Source of the DNA: Planctomycetota bacterium
GTDB taxonomy: Bacteria > Planctomycetota > SZUA-567 > JAKLDR01
DNA: 64,000 bases
NCBI GenBank assembly: GCA_022703445.1
Contig: JAKLDR010000005.1
Span: 36,107-100,106 of the forward strand
Reading direction: 5' to 3'
How positions within the stretch are numbered: position 1 is the stretch's first letter; each line of letters opens with the position of its first letter. Position numbers and translations under genes: made by a program. This document shows, in pieces, positions 20,226 through 46,726 of this stretch. The notes beneath the pieces were generated by a model that was not told the DNA's origin, ran no database searches, and was given only the letters and a program-made list of their open reading frames with translations.

Positions 20226-20312
20226 GGGGTGTGTGAGCATGTGGGCATGCGAGCGTGTGGGTACGCGAAGCGATTATTCGCACCCCAACTCACTCACACA
20301 CCCACACACTCC
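20226..20312. repeat. intercistronic imperfect palindrome built from GTGTG(G/A)G words, copy 1
   Basis: Left arm GGGGTGTGTGAGCATGTGGGCATGCGAGCGTGTGGGTACG. Right arm CGCACCCCAACTCACTCACACACCCACACACTCC. A related copy sits in inverted orientation at 41713-41803 and shares GTGTGGGTACG. Confidence 0.75.
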
Positions 20313-23077: not shown

Positions 23078-24355
23078 CTATTTCTTACCGTCGGCCGGAG
23101 CGACCTCCGGCGGCTTGCAGATGTAGACCGGCTTGTCGGCCCCGGCCATCCAGCCCAGGCACTTGATCGAGGGCACGTAGAAGAAGAAGGAGTACCACGC
23201 GCCGTTGCCGCCCGCCGCGGCGCAGTCGGGCATGGGCGCGGCGAGCTGGACCTTGTCGGCCGTCCAGGCCTTGGTCAGCGGCTCGTCCGCCGGAGGCTTG
23301 AGCCGGTGGAGCGTCGCGCCCCCGCCGTTGACCGGGCGGTAGTAGAAGTTCCCGTCGGGCGGATAGAAGACGAAGCGGCAGGGCTCGGGCGAAGTGACCG
23401 CCGGCAGCTCGCCCTCGACCTTCAGGACTTTCCAGCCGGCGCCGGGGTTGTCGAGCTGGAAGACGTGGAGCTCCTTGCCGGCGAAGTCGATGATCAGCCG
23501 GCGGACCGGATCCAGGAAGCTCCAGCCGCCGCCTCCGAAGGCCGGCCAGCCGTACTGCGGCGCCGTGGCCTTGACCTTGGACCAGTCGGCCGCGTCGTAG
23601 TAGGGGAGGTCCTTGCGCTTCTCGATGCCGCCGACGCTGTAGTAGCGGCCGGTCTTCTCGTCGAAGAGCACCGAGGAGTAGATCCCGGCCATCCGCGGAT
23701 GGTCCGCGGAGGTCAGGCGCGACCACTTCCTGGTGTCGAGGTTCAGGGCGTGAGGCCCGCGCCCGCCGCCGCCGTCGCCCTGCACGCCGGCCCGGCCGAT
23801 GAAGACCACCGAGCCCTTGGGCCCGCCGCCCAGGGCGGCCGGCAGCTCGGCGGCGATGAGATAGGGGTGACTGGGCAGCGGCACCTCGGTGCCCTTCCAC
23901 TCCTGCCAGGGGTCGCCGTTGGAGTTCTGCGCGCAGAACGCGGTGCCGCCATTGATGGTGGCCACGCCGTTGGCGTTCTCGAAGGCCTTCCAGGTCGCGT
24001 CCTCGAAGTCGAAGAACACCGCGCCGGTGAGCTGCATCGGGGCGGCATGCCCGCCCATGCAGGTGAAGACGTAGGCCCCGCGCGAGGAGTAGTCCCGGAC
24101 GAAGGTGCCGCCGCCGAAGGCGCCGAAGAGGGCGGTGGTCATCATATCCGGCTTGACGCCAACCACCTTGGCCACGTCGACGGCCTTGTTGGTGCCGATG
24201 GCCTTCACCTCTCCGGGCTTGGGGAGCTCGTAGGGCGGCTCGGCGGCGGACGATGGAAGGGCCAAGCAGAAGGCCAGGAGGTACTGAGGCACCAAGGCAC
24301 TGAGGCACTTAGTGCGCTTCGCGCGCGATGCCGGATGGGCGAACTTCTCGAACAT
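23078..24355 (-). CDS. secreted hypothetical protein, probable beta-propeller, distant paralog of 31464..32582
   Basis: ORF 23078..24367. The second ATG (24355) follows GGAGGAGACG, so the start may be 24367 or 24355. The N-terminus ...AKRTKCLSALVPQYLLAFCLALPSSAAEPP is signal-like. C-terminal blocks resemble those of the 31464 gene. Confidence 0.75.
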   Translation of the reverse strand: MFEKFAHPASRAKRTKCLSALVPQYLLAFCLALPSSAAEPPYELPKPGEVKAIGTNKAVDVAKVVGVKPDMMTTALFGAFGGGTFVRDYSSRGAYVFTCMGGHAAPMQLTGAVFFDFEDATWKAFENANGVATINGGTAFCAQNSNGDPWQEWKGTEVPLPSHPYLIAAELPAALGGGPKGSVVFIGRAGVQGDGGGGRGPHALNLDTRKWSRLTSADHPRMAGIYSSVLFDEKTGRYYSVGGIEKRKDLPYYDAADWSKVKATAPQYGWPAFGGGGWSFLDPVRRLIIDFAGKELHVFQLDNPGAGWKVLKVEGELPAVTSPEPCRFVFYPPDGNFYYRPVNGGGATLHRLKPPADEPLTKAWTADKVQLAAPMPDCAAAGGNGAWYSFFFYVPSIKCLGWMAGADKPVYICKPPEVAPADGKK

Positions 24356-24406
24356 CGTCTCCTCCATTCAGCTCAGTGCCTTAGTGCCTCAGTCCCTCAG
24401 TGCCTT
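24281..24406. repeat. CAGTGCCT-word palindromic element, copy A, spanning a gene boundary
   Basis: Arm 24281-24316 (GTACTGAGGCACCAAGGCACTGAGGCACTTAGTGCG) is complementary to arm 24372-24406 (CTCAGTGCCTTAGTGCCTCAGTCCCTCAGTGCCTT). The 55-nt loop holds the SD and start of the 23078 gene. Arm 2 covers the last 7-8 codons and the stop of the regulator gene. Confidence 0.85.
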
Positions 24407-25496
24407 CGCGTTGGTCCGGCAGCCTCAGCCTCGTCGGCACCTTGATGAGCGTGGGGGACATTCCGGGGCGCGAGCGCCGCTCGGCCAGGCGCGCGATGGT
24501 CCGGCGGGCCAGCCGGGCGATGCTCCAGGTGATGGTCGGGGGTACCGGGGAGTCGCCGAGGACGCCGCGGTAGGTGTTCCAGTCCTCCTCCGCGCTCCAG
24601 CCCACCATGGCCACATCCCGACCGAGCTCAAGTTTCAGCTCCGCCGCCGCGGGGACGAGCGCATCGACCGAGTTGTGCCAGAGGGCCAGCACCGCCGTAG
24701 GCCGGTCGCGCCGCTCGAGCAGCTTCCGGGCGGCCTCGGGCAGCTGCTCCCAGGGCGTGTCCGCCATCAGTTTCTGATCGATGTCCAGCCCGGCCGCGGC
24801 CAGAGCGGCGGCGGCGCCTCCGAAGCGCTCGCGGCTGGTGGCGCTGTCGGAGATGGGTCCCAGCCAGCCGATGCGCTTGTGCCCCGCGGCGATGAGGTGC
24901 TCGGCCGCGAGCAGCGCCCCCTGGAAGGAGTCCTGCACGACGGCGTCGACGTGCATGGCCGGCTCCCAGGCGTCCATCATCACGACGGGCATGCCGATCT
25001 TCTCGGCGGATGCCAGGCGGCCCGGGTCGGGCGCGTCGAGGATCATCCCCGAGACGCGGCAGTCGCGGAGCTGCTCGATGACCTGCTCGCTGGTGCGCTC
25101 GCCGGTGCCGACCGCCAGCATCGACCAGCCGCGCTCGGCGGCGGCCTTCTGCAGCGCGGCGAAGAGCAGCCGGTTGAACTCGTTCCAGAGCCCTGGCTGC
25201 TCCGCTCCGGAGAGCACGAAGGCCACGGGCAGGCCGCGGTCGGGGTCGTTGGCCCGGGCGTGAACCTTGAAGCCGTGCCGCGGATGGCTGACCAGGAGCC
25301 CCTCGCCCTCAAGCTGCTTGGCCGCCCGCCGGGCGGTCTCGGCAGAGACCCCGTACTTGGAGCCTATCTCCTTGGTCGAAGGCAGATTAGCGCCGGCGCG
25401 GACCTGTCCGGCCTGGATGGCCTGCTTCAGCTGCTCGGCCAGCCAAGGATAGCTGCCCTTGGCATTCTCGCTCGGTACCAACTTGGTGATGGGCAT
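24381..25496 (-). CDS. GntR-type HTH fused to a LacI/periplasmic-binding-protein-like sugar-binding domain, regulator 1
   Basis: 371 aa. LPSTKEIGSKYGVSAETARRAAKQLEGEGLLVSHPRHGFKV (GntR wHTH), then a LacI-like ligand-domain pattern (VAFVLSGAE...GMILD...IGWLGP). Paralog of 49267..50367. Confidence 0.85.
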   Translation of the reverse strand: MPITKLVPSENAKGSYPWLAEQLKQAIQAGQVRAGANLPSTKEIGSKYGVSAETARRAAKQLEGEGLLVSHPRHGFKVHARANDPDRGLPVAFVLSGAEQPGLWNEFNRLLFAALQKAAAERGWSMLAVGTGERTSEQVIEQLRDCRVSGMILDAPDPGRLASAEKIGMPVVMMDAWEPAMHVDAVVQDSFQGALLAAEHLIAAGHKRIGWLGPISDSATSRERFGGAAAALAAAGLDIDQKLMADTPWEQLPEAARKLLERRDRPTAVLALWHNSVDALVPAAAELKLELGRDVAMVGWSAEEDWNTYRGVLGDSPVPPTITWSIARLARRTIARLAERRSRPGMSPTLIKVPTRLRLPDQREGTEGLRH

Positions 25497-25655
25497 GGTG
25501 CCAACCTCCTGCCAACATAGTACCCCACGCGGCCAGAAGTGTTGGCGGGAAAAAGTGCTTACAAAACCAGCTGGAACTGAGTTCCTCGGTCAACTGCCCG
25601 TGACCATCTGCCACGCAGAGCTTGGCGGCTCCGTTGTGGTTGACAGGCGCCCGGC

Positions 25656-28442
25656 TTATTTGCCGGCTGCTTTCGCCACCTCCGCGCACAGCGCGAAGAG
25701 CCGGTCGTCGCGTTCCTGCCAGTTGGAGCACTCGAACGACTTGTAGTTCTGGAAGGCGCGCAGGTAGTACCGGGAGCGCTCGTCGAGCAGGCCGCCTATC
25801 TTCTTGACGCCGTCGGCTGAGACCTTCTTGTCCTCAAGCGCGCGCTCGAGATACAGGATCGCCTCGCCGACCTGCACGCCCTCGCGGAACATCTCCATGC
25901 GCTCGTTGAAGATGGCCCCGTCCGGGCCGGGGCTGAAGCAGGCCGCTATGGCGTCGCTCATGTCGATGCCGCTGCCGCCGTAGGAGACGCGCACCAGGCG
26001 CTTCTTCTCGCCGGTCGACTGGACCGGCCAGAAATCGCCGCCCAGGTAGCCCAGGCCGCAGATGTTGCCCTGCAGCGCGCCTTCGGTGACCAGACGGTAC
26101 TCGGCCAGCCGCGAGTTGTCGCAGAGGTTGTTCACGAACGACACCCCCTGGCGAGGGAATCCCAGGAAGACGTTCTTGGGCGTGGTCTGCCAGCGCTGGG
26201 GGTACTGCGGAAAGCCTTGGCGCTGGAACTGTCTCTGCCCGTCCTGCCCGATGCGCGCGTCGGGGTCGTAGAGCCCGCCGACGCCCCAGACGCCCTCGGA
26301 GCAGAGCACCGGCATCTTCACGTCCTTGGTCGTCCCCTGGTACTCGCTCGGGAAGGTGTGGGCGGTGTGCATCCACTTGCCGTCCGGCCAGATCTTCTTG
26401 AAGACGTCGACCAGCGACGGGTCGGCGGGCTTGGAGTAGTGCACCCAGCCGAAGGCGGCGACGTCGTACCAGCCGCGCTTGTCCAGGCGCTTCTTGAGCT
26501 CGACGAGCACCGGCCGCCAGAAGGCCTCGTTCTCCGGCGTGCCGAAGTCGGGTTGGGGCATCTCCGTCACCTTGCCGGTGGCCGGGTCGAAGACACTGAC
26601 GTTCTGCACCTTCTGCCCGGCCTTGCTCTTGGCCTCGTTGACCCGCTGCCAGGCATCCAGGCGCAGGACGCCGGGTTTGCCACAAGTCTTTTCGTAGAGC
26701 TCCAGATACTTGTCGAGGTTGGTGAAGTCGTAGTCGTAGCCGCCATCGGCCTTCTTCACCCAGCGGACCAGGCCTTCGCTGTTGCCCAGCGTGAAGCTGT
26801 CGGCCAGCAGGCTGGCAACGCAGATCCTGTTGCCGACCTGCCGGAAGGCGGCCAGCGACTTGCCCATCAGCTCGAAGTGCTTGTCGCTCCACATCGGCAC
26901 GTTGTAGTAGCGCGCCACCGAGTCCGGCGACTGGTAGATGTTGTGGTGGATGACGAAGTCCTTGGGGTCCGGCACCTTCCAGTCGTGAACCTTGAGCTCC
27001 ACCGGCACGGAGAGCTTCGCCGCGGCGCCGTCGGCCTCGACGGTCAGCGTCCCCTTGTACTCGCCGGCCGCGGCGTCGGCCGGCACCTGCACCGTCACCC
27101 AGACCGGCGCGATGGCCTGCTTGCGGTTGCCGACCGGCAGGGCTGTGATGTCCACCGGGAAGTCGGCGAGCAGGCGGTCGAAATAGCCGCCGCCGGCGTG
27201 GCCGTAGCCGCTCGTCGGAATCCAGCTGACGTTGGGCGTCGCCGCCTCGGCCCGGCGGACCTGGATCGCCGTGGCCGGGATCCTGGCCTTGCCATCTGCC
27301 CCGGCGAGGTCGGAGACCGAGGCCTTCAAACCCTTGATGTTCTCCGGGGAGGTCACGGCCACCTTGCCGGAGAAGAAACCGTTGCGCGCGCCGACGATGC
27401 GGATCGGGCGGACCTGCACGCCGGGCAGCGCCAGCTCGTTCGTGAAGACCGTCTCGATCGGCTGGTTGTTGACGATCTGCAAACCGGCCGAGGCGTCGTT
27501 GAGGTCGAGCCCCGCCGGCGTCGGGGCGGTGAGCTTGGCCTCCACCACCATGGCGTGCGGCCACTGGACGTCGCCGGCCCAGGTCACGTTGCCGACGGTC
27601 TTCTCGTAGACCAGCTCGTTGACCGGCGCGGTGTGCACCTCGATGGCGATCACGTTCACGCCCTTGCGGAGCATGGCCGGGGGGATGGCCACGCCGTCGG
27701 CCGCACCCTTGGCCGGGAGGTCCCGCCGCCAGAACTTCAGCCCCTCGAGCATGCCGGGCTTGCACCGCGGATCCTCGTAGTAGCCGTAGATCCAGCCGCC
27801 CCAGTACCCGCGGAACTTGTTGTCCGCGGTGACGTAGGCCTCGTCCGGGTAGCGCGTGGCGAAGGTGTCGAAGGCCAGCTTCCCCTCGGGGAGGTGGCCG
27901 CGGGCGAGCTCGGCGCCGTTGACGTAGACGATCGCCCCGCCGAAGTAGCCCAGGGTCAGCTTGAGGTTCGCGGCCTGGGCCGGGTCGGACACCCGGAAGG
28001 TGCTGCGCAGGCAGACCAGGTTGCCCTCGTACGGGCCGCTCGGCTGATACTTCGGGTCGGTCATGTAGCCGGTGGGATTCTTCACCGCCAGCGCCACCCA
28101 GAGGAGGCGCGGGTTCCAGCTGGGATGGTTGATCTCGAGCTTGGGCCAGGCGCTGTCGTCAAACTCCGCGGTCGCCCAGTTGGCCGCGGGCAGTCCCGAA
28201 GCCACCATCGGCACCGGCTTACGGTCCTCGTCCTTCAACTCCTTGCGCTTGCGCTCCAGGAGCGGCTTGAGCTTGCCGTCGGGCGAGATCAGCGTCGGCG
28301 TCTTCCAGCCGATGAAGGCCCGGAAGGTCGCCTGGTTGAGATCGAGAACCACCGTCTCAGCCGGCGGCTTGGGCGGTTCGCCGGCGAGGGCCGCGGTGGC
28401 CGCAAGGAACCAAGCTGCCGCACAGGTCAGAGCTAGACGCAT
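25656..28442 (-). CDS. secreted DUF4091/GH123-like protein, paralog 3 of 4
   Basis: ORF 25656..28457 (TTG). I prefer ATG 28442 (MRLALTCAAAWFLAATAALAGEPP), which is preceded by GAGGAGG. Very similar to paralog 4 by eye. Confidence 0.85.
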   Translation of the reverse strand: MRLALTCAAAWFLAATAALAGEPPKPPAETVVLDLNQATFRAFIGWKTPTLISPDGKLKPLLERKRKELKDEDRKPVPMVASGLPAANWATAEFDDSAWPKLEINHPSWNPRLLWVALAVKNPTGYMTDPKYQPSGPYEGNLVCLRSTFRVSDPAQAANLKLTLGYFGGAIVYVNGAELARGHLPEGKLAFDTFATRYPDEAYVTADNKFRGYWGGWIYGYYEDPRCKPGMLEGLKFWRRDLPAKGAADGVAIPPAMLRKGVNVIAIEVHTAPVNELVYEKTVGNVTWAGDVQWPHAMVVEAKLTAPTPAGLDLNDASAGLQIVNNQPIETVFTNELALPGVQVRPIRIVGARNGFFSGKVAVTSPENIKGLKASVSDLAGADGKARIPATAIQVRRAEAATPNVSWIPTSGYGHAGGGYFDRLLADFPVDITALPVGNRKQAIAPVWVTVQVPADAAAGEYKGTLTVEADGAAAKLSVPVELKVHDWKVPDPKDFVIHHNIYQSPDSVARYYNVPMWSDKHFELMGKSLAAFRQVGNRICVASLLADSFTLGNSEGLVRWVKKADGGYDYDFTNLDKYLELYEKTCGKPGVLRLDAWQRVNEAKSKAGQKVQNVSVFDPATGKVTEMPQPDFGTPENEAFWRPVLVELKKRLDKRGWYDVAAFGWVHYSKPADPSLVDVFKKIWPDGKWMHTAHTFPSEYQGTTKDVKMPVLCSEGVWGVGGLYDPDARIGQDGQRQFQRQGFPQYPQRWQTTPKNVFLGFPRQGVSFVNNLCDNSRLAEYRLVTEGALQGNICGLGYLGGDFWPVQSTGEKKRLVRVSYGGSGIDMSDAIAACFSPGPDGAIFNERMEMFREGVQVGEAILYLERALEDKKVSADGVKKIGGLLDERSRYYLRAFQNYKSFECSNWQERDDRLFALCAEVAKAAGK

Positions 28443-28460
28443 GATGGACCTCCTCAAGTA

Positions 28461-28582
28461 AGGTTTCAGGTTTCAGTGTTCAGCCTTTCGACAAGCTCAA
28501 GGCCCTGAGCAGCGTCGAAGGGGTGTCAGAGACTGGGCCTGACACCCGAAACCTGACACCCGAAACCTGACACCTGAAACCT
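28461..28582. repeat. nested-palindrome intergenic repeat, copy 2 (inverted relative to copy 1)
   Basis: The reverse complement aligns with 17439-17542. The inner palindrome is at 28484-28523 (CCTTTCGACAAGCTCAAGG / CCCTGAGCAGCGTCGAAGGGG). Confidence 0.85.
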
Positions 28583-28587
28583 CGCTG

Positions 28588-31332: not shown

Positions 31333-31357
31333 GATCGCTCTCCTTCTTCCTCTCAGG

Positions 31358-31448
31358 CTCCCTCTCCCCTTGAGGGAAAGGGCCGGGGTGAGGGGTGTGC
31401 CAGGGCGAGAACCCCTCACCCTTTCCCTCTCCCGCAGGGGGAGAGGGG
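31358..31448. repeat. intercistronic imperfect palindrome built from GGGGAGAGGG/GGGAAAGGG words
   Basis: Left arm CTCCCTCTCCCCTTGAGGGAAAGGGCCGGGGTGAGGGG pairs with right arm CCCCTCACCCTTTCCCTCTCCCGCAGGGGGAGAGGGG. It lies between the stop at 31464 and the start at 31332. Confidence 0.75.
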
Positions 31449-31463
31449 ATCTGTAGGGAAGGG

Positions 31464-32582: not shown

Positions 32583-32602
32583 CTTGGTTCTCTCCAAAAA
32601 GC

Positions 32603-37068: not shown

Positions 37069-37078
37069 GCGGAAGACC

Positions 37079-39304
37079 TCATTTCCTGTCGCCGGCCGGC
37101 GCAGCCGGCGCGCCGGCGGGAGCCAGCTCCGCGGCGATCTCCGCGAAGGTCTTGATCACCACGGTCTTCGGGTCGAGGCGCAGCGCGTAGACCTGGGCCC
37201 GGGTCTCGGCGATGTAGAAGAGGCCGCGCTTGCGGTCGAAGACCAGGCCCACCGACGAGCCGCGCGGGAAGTCCCCGGCGATCTTGAGCCCCACCCAGCG
37301 GTTCTTGGCCGGATCCAGCGCCGGGAGGTAGCCGCCGGGCAGCAGCGAGAGGAAGAGGAAGAGGTCGAGGTCCGGATGCCTGGCGACCTCGCGGAGCTCC
37401 CAGAAGTACTTCCGGTCACCGGTCAGGGCCGGGATGTGCTCCGAGCCCTCCGGCTTGAACGCGGAGGCCGCCAAGGTGGTCAGGTCCAGCGCGTGGACCT
37501 CGCCGTCGAAGGGCTTGGCGTAGCCGGTGGAGGCGAAGAAGAGGGCCCGCCCGCGCCGGTCGTCGTAGACGCTGCCGCTGTGGTCCACCACCGGGCCGCG
37601 CAATGTGCCCTTCACGGCGAGCTGCTTCCAGTCGAGGCTGGCGGCGTCGAGCTGCCACACCTTGTTGTACCAGGTGACCATCCCGGCTTCCTTGCTGAAG
37701 AAGAGCTGGGCCCCGTGCCGGCCGAAGAACTCGGGGGTGCGCTTGCGGGAGACCCAGTCGCCGAGGTCCGGATCGTAGAGATAGCAGAACTGGTCGACGG
37801 GCGGATTGGTGCGCTGGCGGCCGTTCAGCACCAGCTTCTTCAGCTCGGGGTGGTAGGCGAAGGATCTGTACTGGTGGCCCATCCACGGCCGGCGGTTGAA
37901 GCTCCAGCCGATCATCGGCTCGTTGGTGCCGATGAAGCCGGGCGGCAGCTCGGTCTCGACCGGCTGGTCCCAGGTGTTGGTGGCGAGATGGTAGTGGGCG
38001 ACGTCGCTGCCGGGATAGGCCGAGTGGCCGCCGCTGTACCAGTAGAGGAGGTCGCGGTCCGGGTCCAGGATCACGGTGCCCCAGTCGCGGTTCCACGCGA
38101 AGGTCTTCAGCGGCTTCAGCGGCACCCAGGTGTTGGCCGGCAGCTCCGCGAGCCTCTTGGCGTGTGCGGCCGGGTCGGGCCGGGGGTCCGAGGTGAAATG
38201 GTCCGGCAGGAAGGCGCCGCCGCGGTAGTGCCGGGTATCCGCCGGGAAGGTCGGCAGCCCGGCGGGGCCGCTCCAGGCGTTGGCCGCGAGGTCGTAGCTC
38301 CACTCCTCCGGCCCGGCGCCGACGTACGTGGAGCTGTCCCAGCCCGGCTGCTTCCGGCCGTAGACGTAGCCGCCCTTCAAGACCACCTTGCCCGGCTCGC
38401 CGCCGGCCAGGAGATGCTCGGCGCGCGGTTCGGGCGCGGTCGGCGGATGCCGCTGCCGCCAGCGCGGCCCCGTGGGCTCGAAGACCCAGAGGTCGTTGGT
38501 CAGGTAGTCGAGGTGATCGCCGCCGAAGAGCACGAATAGCCCGGTCTTGGCGTCGTAGGCGATCTGGCTCAGCGCCCGGGCCGGCGGCGCCGCATCCAGT
38601 GCCTCAGCGGCGATTTCCAGGTTGATGCGGGCCTGGCGGAGCTCCTCGAACTTCTTCCCGCTCAGGCCGGCGGCCAGGCCCTCCAGCGCCGGGCTGACCT
38701 TGGCCAGATAACCCCTGGCGAAGGCGACCTGCCCGGCCAGGTAGGCGTCCTGCGTCTTGAACCCGGCCAGGGCCTTGTCGAGCTCCGCGAGCTTGCCGGT
38801 GACATCCGCGGCAAGCGGCACCACCTCCTTGGCGAGATGGGCCGCTTCCGCCGGACCGGCGAGGCCCTCGAGGTAGCCGTGCCGGGCGAGCCCCGCGACG
38901 CGCTGGAGCGGGGTGCGGAGCGCGGCCAGGCGGTCGGAGAAGTCCTGCAACGGATTCTGCCGCCGGAGATCGGCGTGGATCGCCGTCCACTTGCCGTCAC
39001 GAAGCACCTCGGTCTCAGGCCGCGGATCATCGGTGCGGATCGAGATCCCGCCGAAGCCGAGCCCCCGGCCATCCGGCAGGGTCAGACGCCAGCCCCAGAT
39101 CACCGGGCAGCGTTCGGCGTTGCCGATGCCCCCAGGCGGCCGGTGCTCCTTGCCCCGCAGCCCCGGCGCCTTGGCCTGATACTTCGGATCGCCCTGGTAC
39201 TCGGCGGCCGGGCCGGCCGCCGGCGCGGCATTGGACGGAGGTTCGCCGGCGAGAGCCGACACGACCAGGCAGACAGTCATCGCGCAGATCAGCTTCAGAC
39301 GCAT
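37079..39304 (-). CDS. secreted Kelch-type beta-propeller protein with helical insertion, paralog 1 of 4
   Basis: ORF 37079..39835. Start at MRLKLICAMTVCLVVSALAGEPP (ATG 39304). Kelch-like LFVLFGGDHLDYLTNDLWVFEP. A helical block of about 170 aa follows the first WGW..LPDG..FGG strand set. Confidence 0.8.
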   Translation of the reverse strand: MRLKLICAMTVCLVVSALAGEPPSNAAPAAGPAAEYQGDPKYQAKAPGLRGKEHRPPGGIGNAERCPVIWGWRLTLPDGRGLGFGGISIRTDDPRPETEVLRDGKWTAIHADLRRQNPLQDFSDRLAALRTPLQRVAGLARHGYLEGLAGPAEAAHLAKEVVPLAADVTGKLAELDKALAGFKTQDAYLAGQVAFARGYLAKVSPALEGLAAGLSGKKFEELRQARINLEIAAEALDAAPPARALSQIAYDAKTGLFVLFGGDHLDYLTNDLWVFEPTGPRWRQRHPPTAPEPRAEHLLAGGEPGKVVLKGGYVYGRKQPGWDSSTYVGAGPEEWSYDLAANAWSGPAGLPTFPADTRHYRGGAFLPDHFTSDPRPDPAAHAKRLAELPANTWVPLKPLKTFAWNRDWGTVILDPDRDLLYWYSGGHSAYPGSDVAHYHLATNTWDQPVETELPPGFIGTNEPMIGWSFNRRPWMGHQYRSFAYHPELKKLVLNGRQRTNPPVDQFCYLYDPDLGDWVSRKRTPEFFGRHGAQLFFSKEAGMVTWYNKVWQLDAASLDWKQLAVKGTLRGPVVDHSGSVYDDRRGRALFFASTGYAKPFDGEVHALDLTTLAASAFKPEGSEHIPALTGDRKYFWELREVARHPDLDLFLFLSLLPGGYLPALDPAKNRWVGLKIAGDFPRGSSVGLVFDRKRGLFYIAETRAQVYALRLDPKTVVIKTFAEIAAELAPAGAPAAPAGDRK

Positions 39305-39323
39305 GAAGGCTCTCCCGTGGCTA

Positions 39324-39479
39324 GAAGGGTGGAAGGTGGAGGCAACGACGGAGGACGGCGAACCGCAGAACATCGAACGCCGAATAACGCAGTCCGAAGT
39401 CACTTCGGAATTCGACATTCGGTGTTCTGCGGTTCTGCGGTTGGCGGTTACTTCCACCTTCCACCCTCCACCTTCCACC
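39324..39479. repeat. intercistronic compound palindrome (GGAAGGTGG words outside, CCGCAGAAC arms and a CCGAAG..CTTCGG stem inside)
   Basis: Outer arms GAAGGGTGGAAGGTGGAGG (39324-39342) and CTTCCACCTTCCACCCTCCACCTTCCACC (39451-39479). Inner arms CCGCAGAACATCGAA.. / ..TTCGGTGTTCTGCGG. Core TCCGAAGTCACTTCGGA. Confidence 0.8.
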
Positions 39480-39483
39480 GCTG

Positions 39484-41682
39484 TCACTTCCCGGCCGGTG
39501 GCGCCGGCGGCGCCGGCGGGGCGTAGTCCTTGAGCGGGGCGATCTCCGCCTTGGCCGGGTCGAAGCGCAGGGCCCAGACGCCGCCGTCCCAGCTGGCGTC
39601 GCCCAGCCAGAAGAGACCGCGCTTGGCGTCCCAGTGGATGCCGCAGCAGACCCCGGTGTTGAGCTGGCCGGCGCCCGGAGTGATGGCCAGCTTGACCGTC
39701 ACCCAGCGGTTCTTGGCCGCGTCGTAGGCCACGAAGAGGTCCGGCGACTGCTTGCCGTCGATGTTGATGCGCTGCGGCCAGAGGAAGAGGTCGCTCTCCG
39801 GGTGGTAGGCCACCTCGCGCGGGAAGAAGCCCCACTTCCCGGCCGGGTTCATGCCTTCGGGATTGAGCGGCGCGACCGCGAGCGTGGTCATGTCCAGCGC
39901 ATGGAGCTGCCCGTCATAGGGCCGGCCGTAGCCGTTGAGCGTGGAGAAGATCATCCGGTCGCGCTTGGGGTCGTAGACCAGCCCCGAGCTGTCCACGCCG
40001 CCGCCGGGCATCTTGCCCTGGACCTTGAGCAGCTTCCACTCCAGGGTCTTGCCGTCCAGGCGATACGGGCCATTCCAGGCGAGCATGCCGCTCTTGGTGT
40101 AGCGGATCTGCATACCGTAGGCGTCGTTGTTCATGCCGTCCGGCACGCGGAAGCGCCCGGACCAGTCGCCCCTGTCCGGGTCGTAGAGGTAGGTGTAGCG
40201 GTCGACCTTGGCGTCGTTGACCGAGCCCATGACCATCTTCCTGATGCCCGGGTCGTAGGCCTGGCCGTTCCAGACGTGCTTCTTGGCCCACGGCCGCTGG
40301 TTGAAGTTGAAGCCCGAGGGGTACTGCTCGTTGGTGCCCCAGCAGCCCAGCGGAGCCTCGGTCGGGTCGGTGATCTCCCACCGGTCGGTGGCCAGGTGGT
40401 AGCGGGCCACGTCGTTGCCGCAGTAGCTGGCGTGGCCGCCGGCGTAGACGTAGAGCATGTCCCGGTCGGTATCGTAGACCCAGGTGCCCCAGTCCCGGCC
40501 GCCGAGCGGCACGGCGGTCTTCATCCGCACCCAGGTGTTGGCCGGGAGCGCCTTGAGCTTGGCCTCGTTGGCCGCGGCGTCCGGCTTGGGGCCCTTCATG
40601 AAGTTCTCGGGCCCGGACGGCGGCCAGCCGCCGACCCGCGTATCGGACGGGAAGGTCTTCTCCGTCGCGACGTCTGCCGTCCAGGCGTTCTTATCGAGGT
40701 CGTAGGTCCACTTGACCGGACCGACGTGCTGGTAGCCCCTGCCCAGGAAAGCCCCGCCGCGCATCGAGAGCTTGCCCTCGCCGGCCGATTCGAGGCGCGC
40801 GTCGAAGCGCGGCTCGGGGGCCGCGTCCTGGTGTTTCTGGAACCAGCGCTTCTTGGCCGGGTCGAAGACCCACAGGTCGTTGGTCCAGTAGTCCATGTGG
40901 TAGCCGCCGAAGAGGGCGTAGAGCTTGGTCTTAGGGTCGTAGGCGATGATGGAGAGCGCCCGCGGGGCCGGCTCGGCATCGAAGGCCTCGGCGGCGATTT
41001 CCATTTCGATCTGCGCCTTGCGCATGGCGGCCATCTGGTCGGGGCTCGCCGCCGCGCCGAAGGGCTTGATCAGCCCGGCGGCGGCCTCGAGGTGCTTCAC
41101 GGCGAACTTGACCTGCCCGGCCTCGTACTCGCCGAGGCCCGACTGGCCCTTGAGCTCGGCGACCAGCGCGGCGAGATCCTTAGCGCACTTCTCGACGGCG
41201 GGGTCGACCTCGTCCTTGAGCGCCTTGGCCTCGTCGGCGGCCGGCTTGCCCTCGAAGTAGATGTGCCGGGCCTTGGCGAGCGTGTCCTTGCAGGCGTTGC
41301 GGAGCGCGCGGACCTGCTCGTTCCGCTTCTGGAGCGGGTTCGCCTTCCGGAGCTCGTCGACGATCAGCTTCCAGGCGCCGCCCTCCTTCACCTGCGTGTG
41401 GGCGATGCCGTCGTCGGCGGTCTGGTGGACTCCGCCGAAAGTCATCCCGGAACCGTCGGGCAGTTCGCAGGTCCAGCCCCAGAGGATCGGGTCCTGCTTC
41501 CACTGGGTGGCCGGAACCGGATAGGGCTTGCCCTTCTCCAGCGGCTCGGGGATGGCCCGGGCCGGGACGGTGACCGACTTGGCCCCGTTGGCGTCCACCA
41601 AAGGAGGCGGGGGCGGGGGCTCGCCGGCGAGGGCCGCCGCAGACAGTAAGCCAGTCATCGCACCGATCAGCATTGAACGCAT
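39484..41682 (-). CDS. secreted Kelch-type beta-propeller protein with helical insertion, paralog 2 of 4
   Basis: ORF 39484..41811. Start at MRSMLIGAMTGLLSAAALAGEPP (ATG 41682). 732 aa. LYALFGGYHMDYWTNDLWVFDP. Confidence 0.8.
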   Translation of the reverse strand: MRSMLIGAMTGLLSAAALAGEPPPPPPLVDANGAKSVTVPARAIPEPLEKGKPYPVPATQWKQDPILWGWTCELPDGSGMTFGGVHQTADDGIAHTQVKEGGAWKLIVDELRKANPLQKRNEQVRALRNACKDTLAKARHIYFEGKPAADEAKALKDEVDPAVEKCAKDLAALVAELKGQSGLGEYEAGQVKFAVKHLEAAAGLIKPFGAAASPDQMAAMRKAQIEMEIAAEAFDAEPAPRALSIIAYDPKTKLYALFGGYHMDYWTNDLWVFDPAKKRWFQKHQDAAPEPRFDARLESAGEGKLSMRGGAFLGRGYQHVGPVKWTYDLDKNAWTADVATEKTFPSDTRVGGWPPSGPENFMKGPKPDAAANEAKLKALPANTWVRMKTAVPLGGRDWGTWVYDTDRDMLYVYAGGHASYCGNDVARYHLATDRWEITDPTEAPLGCWGTNEQYPSGFNFNQRPWAKKHVWNGQAYDPGIRKMVMGSVNDAKVDRYTYLYDPDRGDWSGRFRVPDGMNNDAYGMQIRYTKSGMLAWNGPYRLDGKTLEWKLLKVQGKMPGGGVDSSGLVYDPKRDRMIFSTLNGYGRPYDGQLHALDMTTLAVAPLNPEGMNPAGKWGFFPREVAYHPESDLFLWPQRINIDGKQSPDLFVAYDAAKNRWVTVKLAITPGAGQLNTGVCCGIHWDAKRGLFWLGDASWDGGVWALRFDPAKAEIAPLKDYAPPAPPAPPAGK

Positions 41683-41712
41683 GACAAGTCTCCCTTCCGA
41701 CCGAACCTTGGC

Positions 41713-41803
41713 GTGAGCGAGTGTGTGGGTTTGTGGGTGTGTGAGTGGGGCGCAGGCCCAACGTACCCACACACACACATGCCCACGCGCCCACATACTC
41801 CCC
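41713..41803. repeat. intercistronic imperfect palindrome built from GTGTG(G/A)G words, copy 2 (inverted relative to 20226-20312)
   Basis: Arms GTGAGCGAGTGTGTGGGTTTGTGGGTGTGTGAGTGGGG and CCCACACACACACATGCCCACGCGCCCACATACTCCCC. Confidence 0.75.
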
Positions 41804-41807
41804 GTCC

Positions 41808-44072
41808 TCACTTTCCCGCAGCCGGCGCCGGCGCGCCCGACGGAACGAAATCCTTCACCGGCGTGATCTCGGCCTTGGCCGGGTCGAAGCGCATAACCGA
41901 GACTCCGCCGCCCCCGCCCGAATCAGCCGCCCAGAAGATCTTGCGCTTGGCGTCGTAGGCGATCCCGCCGCTGATCCCCGGCAGAACCGCGCCCTTCTGA
42001 ACGGCGATCTTCATCAGCACCCAGCGGTTCTTGGCCGCGTCGTAGGCCGGGAACAGGTCCGGGGCCACCGGCTTGGACGAGAGGTCGCGCCCCTTCTTGT
42101 AGAGCTCGCCCCAGACGAACAGGTCGCTCTCCGGACAGTAAGTCACTTCGCGGGGGAAGAACCACCATGTCTTCGAATCGTCCATGCCCTCCGGATTGAG
42201 CGGGGCAACCTGGGAGGTGGCGAAGTCCAGGGCGTAGATCTGTCCGTTGTACGGTTGGGCATAGCCCGGACTCATGAACAGCATCCGGTCTCGCTTGGGG
42301 TCGTAGACCATGCCGCAGGCGTCCACGCTGGTGACGGGCATCGCTCCCTTGACCGCGAATCTCTCCCATTTCATGGTCTTGGCGTCAAGCAGGAAGATCT
42401 TGTCGCCCTGCCAGCAGAGCGTCCCGTGTTTGGTGTGCCGCACCTGCCCGCTCATGACTGACGGTTCGAAACTCAGGCTGCCTCGGGGGGACATCCAGTC
42501 GGCCTTGTCCGGATCGTAGAGGTAGAAGTACTTGTCGATCGCCCGGAAGCCCAGCTGGACCATCTTGCGGAGATCCGGATCGTAGTCGTGGGAGTTCCAG
42601 GAGTGCGGCTTGACCCAGGGCCGCCGGTTGAAGTCCACGCCGAAGGGATACTGCTCGTTGGTGCCGATGCAGCCGAGCAGCGTCATGGTCGGATCGCTGG
42701 TCTCCCAGCGGCCGGTGCCCAGATGGAACTGCGCCACATCGTTGCCGCAGTAGCTGCAGTGGCCGCCGCCCCAGACATAGAGCATGCCCCGTTCGAAGTC
42801 GAACGGGATGGTTCCCCAGTCGCGGCCGCCGAGCGGAACAGGGATCTTCAGCCCAACCCAGGTATTGAGCGGCAACGCCTTGAGGCTGGCCTCGAAGGCC
42901 GCGGCGTCCGGTCGCGGTCCGGCCATGAAAGCTTCCGGCATGGCCGGCGGGTAGTAGCGCGCCGAGCGTGCCTCCGACGGGAAGGTCTTCTCCTGGTGGC
43001 CGTCGGCCGTCCAGGTGTTCTTCTCGATGTCGTAGATCCACTTGGCCGGGCCGACGTGGATGTAGTGCTTGCCCGGCTCATAGACGCAGCCGCCGCGCAT
43101 GACCACCTTGCCGTCGCCGGAGGCGTCGAGGTGCGCGTCGAAGCGCATCTCGGGGGCGGCGTCCTGGTGGCGCTGGAACCAGCGGCGCTTGGCCGGATCG
43201 AAGACCCAGAGATCATTGACCGCGTAGTCCAGGTGGTCGCCGCCGAAGATGACGTAGAGCTTGGTCTTGGAGTCGTAGGCCGGCTTGGAGAGCACCCGCG
43301 GCGGCGGCTCGCAGTCGAAGGCCTCGGCGGCGATCTCGAGCTCGATCTGGCCCTTGCGCATGGCGGCCATCTGTTCCGGCGTCGCCAGCGCGCCGAAGGG
43401 CTTGATGAAGCCGGCGGCGGCCTCCAGGTGCTTCAGGGCGAACCTGACCTGCCCGGCCTCGTACTCGCCGAGGCCCGAGGCGCCCTTGAGCTCGGCGACC
43501 AACGCCGCGAGATCCTTAACCAGCTTCTCGACCGCCGGGTCGACGCCGTCCTTGAGGAGCTTGGCCTCGTCGGCCGCGGGCTTGCCCTCGAAGTAGATGT
43601 ACCGGGCCCTGGCGAGCGCGTCCTTGCAGGCGTTGCGCAGTGCGACGACCTGCTCGTTGCGCTTCTGGAGCGGGTTGGCCTTCCGGAGCTCATCGATGAT
43701 CGGCTTCCATGTCCCGCCCTCCTTGAGCTGGGTGTGGGCGAGGCCGTCGTCGGCGACCTGCTGGACGCCGCCGAAGGTCATGCCCGAGCCGTCGGGCAGC
43801 TCGCAGGTCCAGCCCCACAGGACCGGGTCGTTCTTCCACTCCGTGGCCGGCACCTTGTAGGGCTTGCCGCGCGCTTCGGGCTCGGGGATGGCCCGGGCCG
43901 GCACGGTCACGAACTTGGTGCCATCGGCCGCCACCAGCGGGGGAGGCGGCGGGGGCTGGCCGGCGAGGGCGGCGGTGCCGAAGACGACGGCCAGGAGGCA
44001 CTGAGGGACTAAGGCACTGAGGCACTTAGTGCGCTTCGCGCCCGCTGTCGGATTGGTACGTATCTGGGTCAT
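41808..44072 (-). CDS. secreted Kelch-type beta-propeller protein with helical insertion, paralog 3 of 4
   Basis: 754 aa, SD GGAGGG. The N-terminus MTQIRTNPTAGAKRTKCLSALVPQCLLAVVFGTAALAGQPP includes the repeat-encoded AKRTKCLSALVPQ block. Confidence 0.85.
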   Translation of the reverse strand: MTQIRTNPTAGAKRTKCLSALVPQCLLAVVFGTAALAGQPPPPPPLVAADGTKFVTVPARAIPEPEARGKPYKVPATEWKNDPVLWGWTCELPDGSGMTFGGVQQVADDGLAHTQLKEGGTWKPIIDELRKANPLQKRNEQVVALRNACKDALARARYIYFEGKPAADEAKLLKDGVDPAVEKLVKDLAALVAELKGASGLGEYEAGQVRFALKHLEAAAGFIKPFGALATPEQMAAMRKGQIELEIAAEAFDCEPPPRVLSKPAYDSKTKLYVIFGGDHLDYAVNDLWVFDPAKRRWFQRHQDAAPEMRFDAHLDASGDGKVVMRGGCVYEPGKHYIHVGPAKWIYDIEKNTWTADGHQEKTFPSEARSARYYPPAMPEAFMAGPRPDAAAFEASLKALPLNTWVGLKIPVPLGGRDWGTIPFDFERGMLYVWGGGHCSYCGNDVAQFHLGTGRWETSDPTMTLLGCIGTNEQYPFGVDFNRRPWVKPHSWNSHDYDPDLRKMVQLGFRAIDKYFYLYDPDKADWMSPRGSLSFEPSVMSGQVRHTKHGTLCWQGDKIFLLDAKTMKWERFAVKGAMPVTSVDACGMVYDPKRDRMLFMSPGYAQPYNGQIYALDFATSQVAPLNPEGMDDSKTWWFFPREVTYCPESDLFVWGELYKKGRDLSSKPVAPDLFPAYDAAKNRWVLMKIAVQKGAVLPGISGGIAYDAKRKIFWAADSGGGGGVSVMRFDPAKAEITPVKDFVPSGAPAPAAGK

Positions 44073-44123
44073 TTCGCCCTCCGTTCGACTCAGTGCCTTA
44101 GTGCCTCAGTCCCTCAGTGCCTT
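43997..44123. repeat. CAGTGCCT-word palindromic element, copy B
   Basis: Arm 43997-44033 lies inside the 5' coding region of the 41808 gene. Arm 44089-44123 lies in its 5' UTR. Arm 2 is identical over about 35 nt to 24372-24406. The 55-nt loop contains the SD and ATG 44072. Confidence 0.85.
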
Positions 44124-44145
44124 CTCACTTCCCCACCACCATCGC

Positions 44146-46716: not shown

Positions 46717-46726
46717 GGTCATCTCC

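What the first reader, a model, noticed from the sequence alone, without database searches (positions are those of the whole stretch)
24281..44123. CAGTGCCT-word palindrome straddling gene boundaries: it encodes a regulator C-terminus and the N-terminal AKRTKCLSALVPQ of two unrelated secreted proteins, enclosing SD and start codon in a 55-nt loop
Seen: copy A has arms at 24281-24316 and 24372-24406; copy B has arms at 43997-44033 and 44089-44123. The upstream arms are identical over about 35 nt. The downstream arms lie inside coding sequence and give ..ASRAKRTKCLSALVPQYLL.. (propeller gene) and ..TAGAKRTKCLSALVPQCLL.. (Kelch paralog 3). These are the positively charged n-region and the start of the h-region of the signal peptides. 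In both copies the arms are separated by 55 nt, and those loops share only their first bases and contain the SD and ATG. In copy A the upstream arm also supplies the last 7-8 codons (EGTEGLRH-stop) of regulator 1. The paralogous regulator 2 ends differently (..RLRPAEKGKS). Inference: either a mobile palindrome has been co-opted as coding sequence, or it is a conserved long-range 5' structure controlling translation initiation of selected genes.
Basis: partly seen in the sequence, partly recalled or inferred. Interest (0 to 1): 0.65.

Follow-up and report, generated by a model that had tools for sequence, protein, structure and literature searches.

The report
Octamer-array foldback enclosing gene starts
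Two copies of a small repeated DNA hairpin, built from four tandem 8-base units per arm, sit right after one gene's stop codon and enclose the next gene's ribosome-binding site and start codon. The far arm is therefore translated as part of a secretion signal, which is an unusual coding use of a REP-like bacterial repeat.

Summary
On the minus strand, two about 140-nt modules (24277-24407 and 43994-44124) each consist of a 5' arm (AGGSACTN)x4, a 55-nt spacer holding the SD and ATG, and a 3' arm (NAGTSCCT)x4 read as ..TKCLSALVPQ(C/Y)L.

The window comes from a Planctomycetota MAG. At least 11 further modules with the same geometry and the same reading phase occur in related genomes, in front of at least five unrelated secreted-protein families.

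Orthologues of the copy-A gene carry plain signal peptides, so the arm is translated and was acquired recently. The arm uses the genome's rarest codons (TTA is 0.2% of Leu), so the DNA is conserved, not the peptide.

Arms stay 94-100% identical where the flanks are 80-83% identical and the spacers cannot be aligned. Spacer relatedness cuts across gene relatedness. There are no pair-specific compensatory changes.

Other copies, including all those seen in other phyla, are non-coding hairpins placed directly after stop codons.

Best reading: a REP/REPIN-like foldback repeat family that has been built into operon junctions, here engulfing the next gene's translation start. A dedicated role in translational control is possible but not shown. 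Inversion and slippage switching found no support in eight assemblies.

The parts
24372..24407 (-). Copy A, 5' arm: GAAGGCACTG AGGGACTG AGGCACTA AGGCACTGAG (four tandem octamers). It carries stop codons in all three frames. The TAA at 24383-24381 ends the regulator ORF.
   Evidence: Identical over 36 nt to the copy B arm.
24315..24371 (-). Copy A spacer (the loop): SD GGAGGAG at 24365-24359, ATG at 24355 (alternative at 24367), and codons 1-13 (MFEKFAHPASRAK) of the 425-aa gene.
   Evidence: Gene callers in five assemblies start the gene at one of these two ATGs. 34 of 55 bases are identical to the copy B spacer.
24277..24314 (-). Copy A, 3' arm: CACTAAGTGCCTCAGTGCCTTGGTGCCTCAGTACCTCC, translated as (R)TKCLSALVPQYL. 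This covers the end of the n-region and the start of the h-region of the signal peptide.
   Evidence: Orthologues have plain signal peptides ending A|AEPPY.
23078..24355 (-). 425-aa secreted protein with no Pfam family, downstream of copy A. The mature part starts at AEPPYELP.
24381..25496 (-). GntR-HTH plus periplasmic-binding-domain regulator. Its last 8 codons and its stop lie in the copy A 5' arm.
   Evidence: The orthologue in L143 ends 11 codons earlier at a TGA that the window has lost.
44089..44124 (-). Copy B, 5' arm, the same 36 nt as in copy A. It lies in the intergenic region and starts 22 nt after the TAG (44148-44146) of the upstream Kelch gene.
44032..44088 (-). Copy B spacer: SD GGAGGG at 44082-44077, ATG at 44072, and codons 1-13 (MTQIRTNPTAGAK).
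   Evidence: There is no other in-frame start codon before the mature part.
43994..44031 (-). Copy B, 3' arm: CACTAAGTGCCTCAGTGCCTTAGTCCCTCAGTGCCTCC, translated as (R)TKCLSALVPQCL. It includes the rare codons AGT, TTA and CCT.
41808..44072 (-). 754-aa Kelch-repeat secreted protein downstream of copy B. Its tandem paralogue (39484-41682) has a plain signal peptide, MRSMLIGAMTGLLSAAALAG|EPPPPPP.
44146..46827 (-). Upstream Kelch-repeat gene. Gene callers give 856 aa; the ORF listing gives 893 aa from a TTG.

Best explanation
These are two copies of a lineage-specific foldback repeat of the REP/REPIN/MITE kind.

**Anatomy.** Two handed, inverted arms each consist of four tandem octamers: the 5' arm is (AGGSACTN)4 and the 3' arm is (NAGTSCCT)4. 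They are separated by a poorly conserved 37-100-nt spacer.

**Position.** The element's home is the stretch immediately after a gene's stop codon. In this Planctomycetota clade the gene clusters are long, co-directional and tightly packed. The next gene's SD and ATG therefore lie inside the spacer, with the ATG about 19 nt after the 5' arm. The distal arm is read in the one suitable open frame as ..TKCLSALVPQCL.., which extends the n/h-region of a Sec signal peptide.

**DNA level (inferred).** The module persists and spreads as a unit, through recombination or gene conversion between copies or through an unidentified enzyme. The arms are held constant as sequence while the spacers turn over. 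Gene bodies can also be swapped behind a resident module. Copy A most likely arose when the leader module of a Kelch gene that followed the regulator became fused to the 425-aa gene.

**RNA level (predicted, not measured).**
- The arms pair into an imperfect helix of about 31-35 bp.
- The 5' arm stops any upstream reading frame.
- The helix caps the 3' side of the upstream cistron.
- The helix holds the downstream SD and AUG in an open loop.
- The first ribosome has to melt the helix 12-26 codons into the gene.

The expected effect is a modulation of mRNA stability, processing and initiation at the junction. It is not an on/off sequestration of the SD.
For: **Shown by tool results**
1. Family and geometry. 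15 pairs occur in this clade, almost all with exactly four units per arm. In 11 of them a strong SD and ATG lie 11-25 nt (mode 19) after the 5' arm, the 3' arm lies 31-79 nt after the ATG and always in the KCLSALVPQCL phase, and the upstream stop lies between -26 and +22 of the arm start.
2. The downstream proteins fall into at least five unrelated families.
3. Recent gain. Ten orthologues of the copy-A gene (68-84% identity) have plain signal peptides cleaved before AEPPY.
4. Nucleotide-level constraint. The arm codons TTA, AGT and CCT are 0.2%, 2.1% and 3.3% of their synonymous sets.
5. At an orthologous junction the flanks are 80% and 83% identical, the arms 94% and 100%, and the spacers cannot be aligned (99 against 62 nt).
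6. Incongruence. The spacers of L046b and L126 score 43, and those of copies A and B score 26, although the flanking genes are unrelated.
7. No pair-specific compensation. Within a pair there are 27.8 Watson-Crick positions, against 28.0 between arms of different pairs. The 5' arms and 3' arms differ systematically at two positions.
8. Non-coding members lie directly after stop codons in this clade (L130, L135). All inverted pairs examined in other phyla do the same, with no credible start in the loop.
9. At the orthologous regulator junction in L143 both arms belong to a second octamer family, AGGCACAN/NTGTGCCT. The regulator there keeps its TGA, and a Kelch gene follows.
10. Six other operon junctions in the window carry stop-hairpin-SD-ATG foldbacks built from other short tandem units.
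11. The RNA helix is strongly predicted, with SD and AUG in the loop.

**From the literature**
- REPINs are inverted conserved ends with a less conserved spacer that form hairpins (PMC3116915).
- Pairs of four tandem octamers on opposite strands at variable distance were catalogued in Geobacter metallireducens (PMC2700814).
Against: - No mobilising enzyme is known. None of 15 Pfam-scanned ORFs in the window is a transposase or recombinase.
- No target-site duplication is visible.
- I could not take a whole-genome census, so the copy number and the fraction of coding copies rest on about 15 pairs.
- Identical arm consensus in genomes whose proteins are only about 80% identical implies a sequence-specific reader or strong selection. 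That fits a dedicated regulatory element as well as it fits a selfish one.
- The regular spacing of 5' arm, SD and ATG, and the restriction to secreted proteins, could reflect function rather than mere tolerance.
- The arms are direct octamer arrays, not palindromic REP cores.
- There are no expression data of any kind.
Confidence: 0.5

Rival explanations
1. A dedicated post-transcriptional control element that defines a regulon of secreted glycan-active proteins. A sequence-specific reader (a protein that binds periodic RNA, an sRNA made of octamer arrays, or RNase III acting on the long helix) toggles between two states. In one, the arms are paired and the SD is free in the loop. In the other, the 5' arm is occupied and the CCUCC tail of the 3' arm is free to pair with the SD.
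For: - The arm sequence, not only its complementarity, is conserved between genomes.
- The distance from arm to SD to ATG is constant.
- All 11 coding modules precede proteins with signal peptides.
- When the 5' arm is blocked in silico, the SD pairs with the CCUCC end of the 3' arm in most modules.
- Two different octamer families adopt the same architecture, with both arms switched together.
- A solitary 111-nt array exists in L017 and could act in trans.
Against: - In the default fold the SD and AUG are in the loop, so the helix does not by itself block initiation.
- There are no compensatory changes, and an A.C mismatch is conserved.
- Close orthologues and tandem paralogues do without the module.
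- Family members in this clade and elsewhere are non-coding hairpins after genes.
- There is no Rfam family match.
- No candidate reader has been identified.
Confidence: 0.25
2. A DNA-level protein-binding site. Each arm would be an array of four 8-bp boxes bound cooperatively by a regulator or nucleoid protein, in the manner of MetJ on tandem 8-bp metboxes or the IHF/HU proposal for Geobacter. The inverted pair would act as an operator or roadblock inside the operon.
For: - There are exactly four units per arm in nearly all copies.
- The sequence is conserved without pairing compensation.
- The published analogue of paired four-octamer sites at variable distance was interpreted in this way (PMC2700814).
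Against: - The spacing (37-100 bp) shows no helical phasing.
- No promoter-like site is nearby.
- The sites lie inside transcribed operon junctions and coding sequence.
- The 5' and 3' arms are handed, which a symmetric binder does not need.
- Array length varies from 3 to 7 units between related 5' arms.
Confidence: 0.1
3. A phase-variation switch. Either the spacer inverts between the inverted arms, removing the SD and ATG from the gene, or slipped-strand gain or loss of one 8-nt unit in the translated arm shifts the reading frame, as with the CTCTT repeats in the leader-peptide region of Neisseria opa genes.
For: - Inverted repeats flank the translation start.
- The tandem unit is not a multiple of three and lies in a leader-peptide coding region, as in opa (PMC3960869).
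- Unit number differs (3 against 7) between two related non-coding 5' arms.
Against: - Eight assemblies from different samples show the same orientation and the same unit number at both copies.
- All 11 translated arms have four in-frame units.
- The units are imperfect and few, which disfavours slippage.
- A 55-nt spacer is very short for recombinase-mediated inversion (own knowledge).
- No invertase gene was found among the scanned ORFs.
Confidence: 0.05

Closest known systems
REP / BIME / REPIN elements (REP doublets forming hairpins, mobilised by RAYT transposases; PMC3116915)
   Same: - Many copies per genome.
- Two highly conserved ends in inverted orientation with a less conserved spacer.
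- Predicted hairpin in ssDNA or mRNA.
- Placement directly after genes.
- Persistence in a lineage.
   Different: - The ends are direct arrays of four octamers, not imperfect palindromes.
- The end-to-end distance varies (37-100 nt) rather than being fixed.
- One end is translated in most copies.
- No compensatory changes are seen.
- No RAYT is known here.
Paired 'class 1' sites of Geobacter metallireducens: four tandem octanucleotide repeats (GTTGCTYN) on opposite strands at variable distance (PMC2700814)
   Same: The architecture is the same: four octamers per site, sites paired in inverted orientation, variable distance, many copies, and outer units less well conserved.
   Different: - The octamer sequence differs.
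- The Geobacter sites were only catalogued and guessed to be IHF/HU sites.
- No coding overlap or enclosure of a start codon was reported.
- IS elements insert next to them.
Coding tandem repeats in leader-peptide regions of contingency genes (Neisseria opa CTCTT pentamers; PMC3960869)
   Same: A short tandem repeat whose unit is not a multiple of three is translated as the hydrophobic part of a signal peptide.
   Different: - The opa repeats are numerous, perfect and variable in number, and they act by frameshifting.
- Here there are four imperfect units, invariant in number.
- Here the array is always partnered by an inverted array in the 5' UTR.
Intercistronic and post-stop-codon hairpins that set mRNA stability or translation in operons (REP stabilisers such as malE-malF; REPs within about 15 nt of a stop codon that affect upstream translation; own knowledge)
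   Same: A strong hairpin begins within a few nucleotides of the upstream stop codon inside a polycistronic unit.
   Different: Those hairpins lie wholly between genes. Here the hairpin encloses the next gene's SD and ATG and reaches 12-26 codons into it.
Proteins that read periodic short motifs (MetJ on tandem 8-bp metboxes in DNA; TRAP and HutP on spaced triplets in RNA; own knowledge)
   Same: A periodic short unit (here 8 nt, with GAG/AAG recurring each period) is repeated a fixed small number of times.
   Different: No such protein is known or was identified here, and the motif sequence is unrelated to any of these.

Membership tests
REPIN / REP doublet | Two conserved ends in inverted orientation, with a less conserved spacer, forming a hairpin. 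| tested here: met
   Arms are 94-100% identical where spacers are 46-62% identical. Folds are -73 to -97 kcal/mol.
REPIN / REP doublet | Each end contains an imperfect palindromic REP core. | tested here: not met
   Each arm is a head-to-tail array of four octamers. There is no internal palindrome apart from a 4-bp GCAC/GUGC turn at the inner end of the 3' arm.
REPIN / REP doublet | Extragenic placement. | tested here: not met
   The 3' arm lies inside an ORF in 11 of 15 pairs, and in copy A the 5' arm also overlaps the upstream ORF's end.
REPIN / REP doublet | Compensatory changes maintain the hairpin. | tested here: not met
   Within-pair complementarity equals between-pair complementarity (27.8 against 28.0 Watson-Crick positions of 33), and private variants are uncompensated.
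REPIN / REP doublet | A cognate RAYT (Y1 transposase) in the genome. | not testable with these tools
   None was found among 15 Pfam-scanned ORFs of the window. The rest of the genome is not available.
MITE | Terminal inverted repeats on a short non-autonomous unit. | tested here: met
   Arms of 31-38 nt on a unit of about 130-170 nt.
MITE | Target-site duplication flanking the element. | tested here: inconclusive
   No direct repeat is evident in the anchored flanks of 15 copies, but the outer boundary is blurred by degenerate outer octamers.
MITE | The internal sequence is shared among copies. | tested here: inconclusive
   It is shared in some pairs (copies A and B, 34 of 55 bases; L046b and L126, score 43) but not detectable in most.
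Slipped-strand contingency locus (opa type) | A tandem repeat with a unit that is not a multiple of three, inside the leader-peptide coding region. | tested here: met
   Four 8-nt units are translated as KCLSALVPQCL.
Slipped-strand contingency locus (opa type) | The repeat number varies between cells or strains and switches the frame. | tested here: not met
   The sequence is identical in eight assemblies, and there are four in-frame units in all 11 coding modules. Read-level data were not available.
Invertible DNA switch (inverton) | Both orientations of the segment between the inverted repeats are found. | tested here: not met
   Only the ON orientation occurs in eight assemblies. No spacer matches another in reverse complement above chance.
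Geobacter-type paired octamer sites | Four tandem octamers per site, with sites paired on opposite strands at variable distance. | tested here: met
   compared with the description in PMC2700814.
Geobacter-type paired octamer sites | Octamer consensus GTTGCTYN. | tested here: not met
   The consensus here is AGGSACTN, with a sister family AGGCACAN.
SD-sequestering translational operator or RNA thermometer | The SD and/or AUG is base-paired within the regulatory stem. | tested here: not met
   The SD and AUG lie in the loop. Mean probability of being unpaired is 0.32-0.70 for the SD region and 0.34-1.0 for the AUG.
Any curated RNA family (Rfam 15) | A match at the gathering score. | tested here: not met
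   No match anywhere in the 64-kb window.

The most novel reading that the evidence does not exclude
The inverted octamer arrays mark a portable leader cassette. The cassette would carry three-frame stops, an SD, an ATG, the n-region and the start of the h-region, and could be placed in front of any exported protein. It would be read by a sequence-specific factor, possibly together with the very rare TTA codon that each arm carries. The result would be a post-transcriptional regulon of secreted glycan-degrading enzymes in a Planctomycetota clade. It would also be one manifestation of a cross-phylum class of AGGSACT octamer arrays that serve a shared, still unknown machinery.
Probability: 0.15. 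Interest if true: 0.8.

Novelty: new variant of a known kind. Interest (0 to 1): 0.55.

Why it matters
Small interspersed palindromic repeats are regarded as extragenic. Here one family routinely encloses a translation start and contributes about 12 codons to Sec signal peptides of unrelated proteins.

- This is a clear natural case of repeat DNA being taken up as coding sequence.
- It shows a leader (SD, start codon and the first part of the signal peptide) behaving as a module that is separable from the gene behind it.
- If the helix or the arm sequence proves to be read by a factor, it would define a new kind of operon-internal control in a phylum where post-transcriptional regulation is almost unexplored.
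- The recurrence of the same octamer in arrays across many phyla is unexplained and can be tested by co-occurrence genomics.
- For annotation, these arms explain odd C-terminal extensions (EGTEGLRH) and LSALVPQ-type peptides in MAG proteomes.

Tried and rejected
1. **Word-indexed protein search** with a synthetic query of arm peptides. It collected only 5 candidates and gave one hit, P0001, so it was useless as a census.
2. **Exhaustive profile search** of the N-terminal motif against 1.84 billion representatives. Only P0001 was real, and the other three hits are unrelated low-complexity proteins. The motif is too short for this route.
3. **Look-up of P0001's contig**. It is not on record.
4. 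**Full-text search** for the array sequences. No paper was found.
5. **Rfam** at gathering score. No match.
6. **Sigma-70 promoter and intrinsic terminator scans** around both copies. No sites, so the helix is not a canonical terminator and the spacer does not hold a recognisable promoter.
7. **Inverton idea.** The orientation is identical in eight assemblies, and no spacer matches another in reverse complement.
8. **Slippage idea.** There is no variation in unit number in the translated arms.
9. **Covariation as evidence for a selected RNA structure.** Complementarity within and between pairs is the same.
10. **The idea that the conserved 'GGGAAGTGA' before many foldbacks belongs to the element.** It is the conserved ..GK-stop C-terminus of the GH123 and Kelch paralogues.
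11. **Chi, KOPS, uptake-sequence and G-quadruplex readings of the octamer.** I considered these from general knowledge and dropped them, because the arrays are local, paired and mostly AGGCACT (only GG runs).

Full report
**1. What is in the window**

All the genes concerned are on the minus strand. Read in gene sense, copy A runs as follows.
- The GntR/periplasmic-binding-type regulator (24381-25496; Pfam) runs into the 5' arm GAAGGCACTG AGGGACTG AGGCACTA AGGCACTGAG (24407-24372). It ends at a TAA inside the third octamer.
- Then come 6 nt, the SD GGAGGAG, 3 nt, ATG (24355) and 13 codons.
- Then comes the 3' arm CACTA AGTGCCTC AGTGCCTT GGTGCCTC AGTACCTCC (24314-24277).

Copy B starts 22 nt after the TAG of a Kelch-repeat gene.
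- It has the identical 36-nt 5' arm (44124-44089).
- The SD is GGAGGG and the ATG is at 44072.
- The 3' arm lies at 44031-43994, inside a 754-aa Kelch-repeat gene.

The words are far beyond chance. There are 7 matches against 0.00 expected for a 20-mer and 12 against 0.46 for two units, and every match lies in these four arms. The RNA folds at -81 and -85.5 kcal/mol, with z = -5.2 and -7.4.

Both module regions are base-for-base identical in eight independent metagenome assemblies. The sequence is therefore real.

One point in the finding is wrong. The two 55-nt spacers are homologous. They have the same length, the ATG falls in the same column, and 34 of 55 bases are identical. Their local score is 26, against 7.8 +/- 1.7 for shuffles.

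**2. The arm is translated**

- In copy B there is no in-frame ATG, GTG or TTG between the ATG at 44072 and the mature part.
- The tandem paralogue begins MRSMLIGAMTGLLSAAALAG|EPPPPPP (gene called from the ATG at 41682). The copy-B protein begins MTQIRTNPTAGAKRTKCLSALVPQCLLAVVFGTAALAG|QPPPPPP.
- For copy A, ten orthologues at 68-84% identity all carry ordinary signal peptides that end just before AEPPY. One example is MRAAAIVLASLAITAVHA|AEPPYELP. Only the window's protein reads MFEKFAHPASRAKRTKCLSALVPQYLLAFCLALPSSA|AEPPYELP.

So the protein needs a signal peptide, the start lies in the spacer, and the arm supplies the end of the n-region and the first part of the h-region. The module is also a recent acquisition at this gene.

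The same search names the source organism as a Planctomycetota MAG.

**3. It is a repeat family with a fixed geometry**

I scanned public genomes for four octamers and metagenomes for the inverted pair. These returned the same architecture in a related MAG (CALGYR01: L017, L046, L056, L092) and in metagenome contigs with about 70% GC (L126, L130, L131, L133, L135, L136, L142).

In this clade almost every array is one of an inverted pair, and nearly every arm has exactly four units.

In 11 of 15 pairs:
- a good SD and ATG lie 11-25 nt (mode 19) after the 5' arm;
- the 3' arm begins 31-79 nt after the ATG;
- the 3' arm is always read in the same phase, (T)KCLSALVPQCL, followed by a Leu-rich core and an A-x-A-G-E type end;
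- the upstream co-directional ORF stops between -26 and +22 of the arm start, mostly 1-8 nt before it.

The downstream proteins fall into at least five unrelated families.

The 5' arm has stop codons in all three frames. The 3' arm is open in two frames, and the one used is the more hydrophobic (read directly from the sequence).

Four pairs (L017, L056, L130, L135) lack a clear SD-led start in the spacer. L056 may still be coding. L130 and L135 are non-coding hairpins that follow a stop codon.

**4. The DNA is conserved, not the peptide and not the pairing**

- The arm codons AGT, TTA and CCT make up 2.1%, 0.2% and 3.3% of Ser, Leu and Pro codons in 9,949 codons of this window.
- At an orthologous junction in two genomes (L092a and L142) the flanks are 80% and 83% identical. 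The arms are 94% and 100% identical. The spacers cannot be aligned (99 against 62 nt).
- Complementarity within a pair (27.8 Watson-Crick, 1.4 G.U and 3.8 mismatches out of 33) equals that between arms taken from different pairs (28.0, 1.3 and 3.7).
- Private variants are not compensated.
- All 5' arms differ from all 3' arms at the same two N positions, which gives a conserved A.C mismatch.

So the arms behave as two handed, sequence-constrained ends. They do not behave as a helix kept by compensatory evolution.

**5. Modules and genes have different histories**

The spacers of L046b and L126 are clearly homologous (score 43). They also share a rare first-octamer variant and the rest of the signal peptide. 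Yet the proteins behind them and the DNA in front of them are unrelated. Copies A and B are related in the same way.

Conversely, members of one protein family carry unrelated spacers.

In the related MAG the gene order is: orthologous regulator (82% identical 3' end, ending RLRLPE-TGA), module, 744-aa Kelch gene, 11 nt, the 403-aa orthologue of the copy-A gene with no module. The 5' arm there aligns without gaps to the window's copy-A arm. However, both of its arms belong to a sister octamer family, AGGCACAN/NTGTGCCT, and the 3' arm is read as LCLCAFVPLCLP.

I draw three inferences.
- The junction module is older than the present gene arrangement.
- The window lost the regulator's TGA, so the ORF now runs on to the arm's TAA. 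This explains EGTEGLRH.
- The Kelch leader module most likely became fused to the 425-aa gene through loss of the Kelch body.

Modules therefore seem to be exchanged or converted as units, and gene bodies can be swapped behind them.

**6. Context**

Six other junctions of this co-directional glycan-enzyme cluster have the layout stop, foldback, SD, ATG. Their arms are made of other short tandem units (AGGTTTC, GGTTGGG, GTGTGGG, GGTGGAAGG, GAGGG/CCCTC). In five of the six the G-rich arm comes first. The sixth (31346-31461) is a nested palindrome that does not fit this rule.

In other phyla the AGGSACTN arrays are mostly single-orientation intergenic arrays. Where they form inverted pairs, the pairs sit 2-20 nt after stop codons, often between convergent genes, and no credible start lies in the loop.

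The general habitat of the family is therefore the stretch just after a gene. Enclosing the next gene's start is the special feature of this clade.

Regulator 2 is joined to a cytoplasmic-type gene by an ATGA overlap, without a module.

**7. How it most likely works**

*Shown:* the anatomy, the translation of the arm, the family, the turnover, and the lack of compensation.

*Predicted:*
- In the mRNA the arms form an imperfect helix of about 31-35 bp.
- The SD and AUG remain in the loop.
- When the 5' arm is made unavailable in silico, the CCUCC tail of the 3' arm tends to pair with the SD.

*Inferred:*
- The element acts like other hairpins placed after stop codons. It ends any upstream reading frame, caps the upstream cistron and isolates the next initiation region.
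- The first ribosome has to melt the helix 12-26 codons in.
- A perfect-enough duplex of this length is also a plausible RNase III substrate (own knowledge).

I rate 'REP/REPIN-like foldback repeat built into the leader' at 0.5. I rate a dedicated translational or processing regulon read by a sequence-specific factor at 0.25, a DNA-binding array at 0.1, and phase variation at 0.05.

**8. Comparison with known systems**

- **REPIN (PMC3116915).** This is the closest class: conserved inverted ends, a looser spacer and a hairpin. Four defining features fail here. There is no palindromic core in each end. The element is not extragenic. There are no compensatory changes. The spacing is not fixed. 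The cognate transposase could not be tested.
- **Geobacter metallireducens (PMC2700814).** This is the closest published architecture. It has 24 pairs of four tandem octamers on opposite strands at variable distance. They were only catalogued and guessed to be IHF/HU sites, and their octamer is different.
- **Neisseria opa (PMC3960869).** Translation of a tandem repeat as the hydrophobic part of a leader peptide has a precedent in the CTCTT repeats. The hallmark of that system, variation in repeat number, was not seen here.
- **Rfam.** No family matches.

**9. Verdict**

'Translational control structure' remains open.

It is a new variant of a known kind of element, with an unusual and well-documented coding overlap. 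Interest 0.55.

Noticed in passing
window 28461-28582; 20227-20303; 41735-41800; 13693-13756; 39326-39467; 31346-31461: Six other operon junctions carry stop-foldback-SD-ATG hairpins (-53 to -107 kcal/mol). Their arms are tandem short units of other families (AGGTTTC, GTGTGGG, GGTTGGG, GGTGGAAGG, GAGGG/CCCTC). In five of the six the G-rich arm comes first; 31346-31461 is a nested palindrome. In these junctions the next ATG lies after the 3' arm.
   Followed up: partly
L001-L120 (genome contigs); L146-L157 (viral contigs): Tandem arrays of the same octamer, AGGSACTN, occur in many phyla, including Acidobacteriota, Bacteroidota, Chloroflexota, Desulfobacterota, Streptomyces, Planctomycetota and Cyanobacteriota. 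In viral contigs there are 12 loci, against 2, 0 and 1 for three composition-matched permuted octamers. The cause is unknown.
   Followed up: partly
L143:1705-1822 and 5222-5384; L092:3317-3347: A sister octamer family, AGGCACAN/NTGTGCCT, forms the same start-enclosing modules. Its 3' arm is read as LCLCAFVPLCL. One gene (L092b) has both families in tandem in its leader.
   Followed up: partly
window 43994-44031 (also most 3' arms in L046, L092, L126, L131, L133, L142): Almost every translated arm contains a TTA codon. TTA is 0.2% of Leu codons in this window. A rare-tRNA dependence like that of Streptomyces bldA is conceivable for the genes that carry the module.
   Followed up: no
window 17508-17527 (-), 20077-20096 (-), 28484-28503 (+); L143:5237-5280: A second small palindromic repeat, CCTTTCGACAAGCTCAAGGC...GTCGAAAGG, occurs three times in the window (0.00 expected). 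It is nested in the loops or arms of the foldbacks, including inside a 5' arm in L143.
   Followed up: partly
window 24381-24413 vs L143:1680-1705: The 11-residue C-terminal extension of regulator 1 (DQREGTEGLRH) results from loss of the ancestral TGA that the orthologue retains. The three-frame stops in the arm caught the read-through.
   Followed up: yes
window 44125-44145: Between the TAG of the upstream Kelch gene and the copy B arm lies GCGATGGTGGTGGGGAAGTGAGA. It ends like the ..GK-TGA termini of the paralogues, so it may be a relic of an older gene end or start.
   Followed up: no
window 49264-49300: The paralogous regulator 2 is joined to the next gene by an ATGA stop/start overlap. 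That gene is GH38-like and has no signal peptide. There is no hairpin at this junction.
   Followed up: yes
window gene ends at 13761, 20327, 25656, 28588, 31464, 39484, 41808: Many secreted proteins of the cluster end in ..(A)GK-stop or ..RK-stop. The GH123 paralogues end CAEVA..GK and the Kelch paralogues end PA(P)AGK. In six of these seven cases a foldback follows directly.
   Followed up: partly
L126:3113-3167 vs L046:4544-4566: Two closely related modules differ in 5'-arm length, with 7 units against 3. Array length therefore changes in the untranslated arm, while the translated arm stays at four units.
   Followed up: partly
L127, L129, L132, L134 (Ga0307416/Ga0307410, GC 0.70-0.74): In another high-GC lineage the inverted octamer arrays directly extend a GC-rich inner hairpin (GAGATGACGGCCGCTCGGG...CCCGAGCGGCCGTCATCTC). 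The result is very long intergenic hairpins.
   Followed up: no
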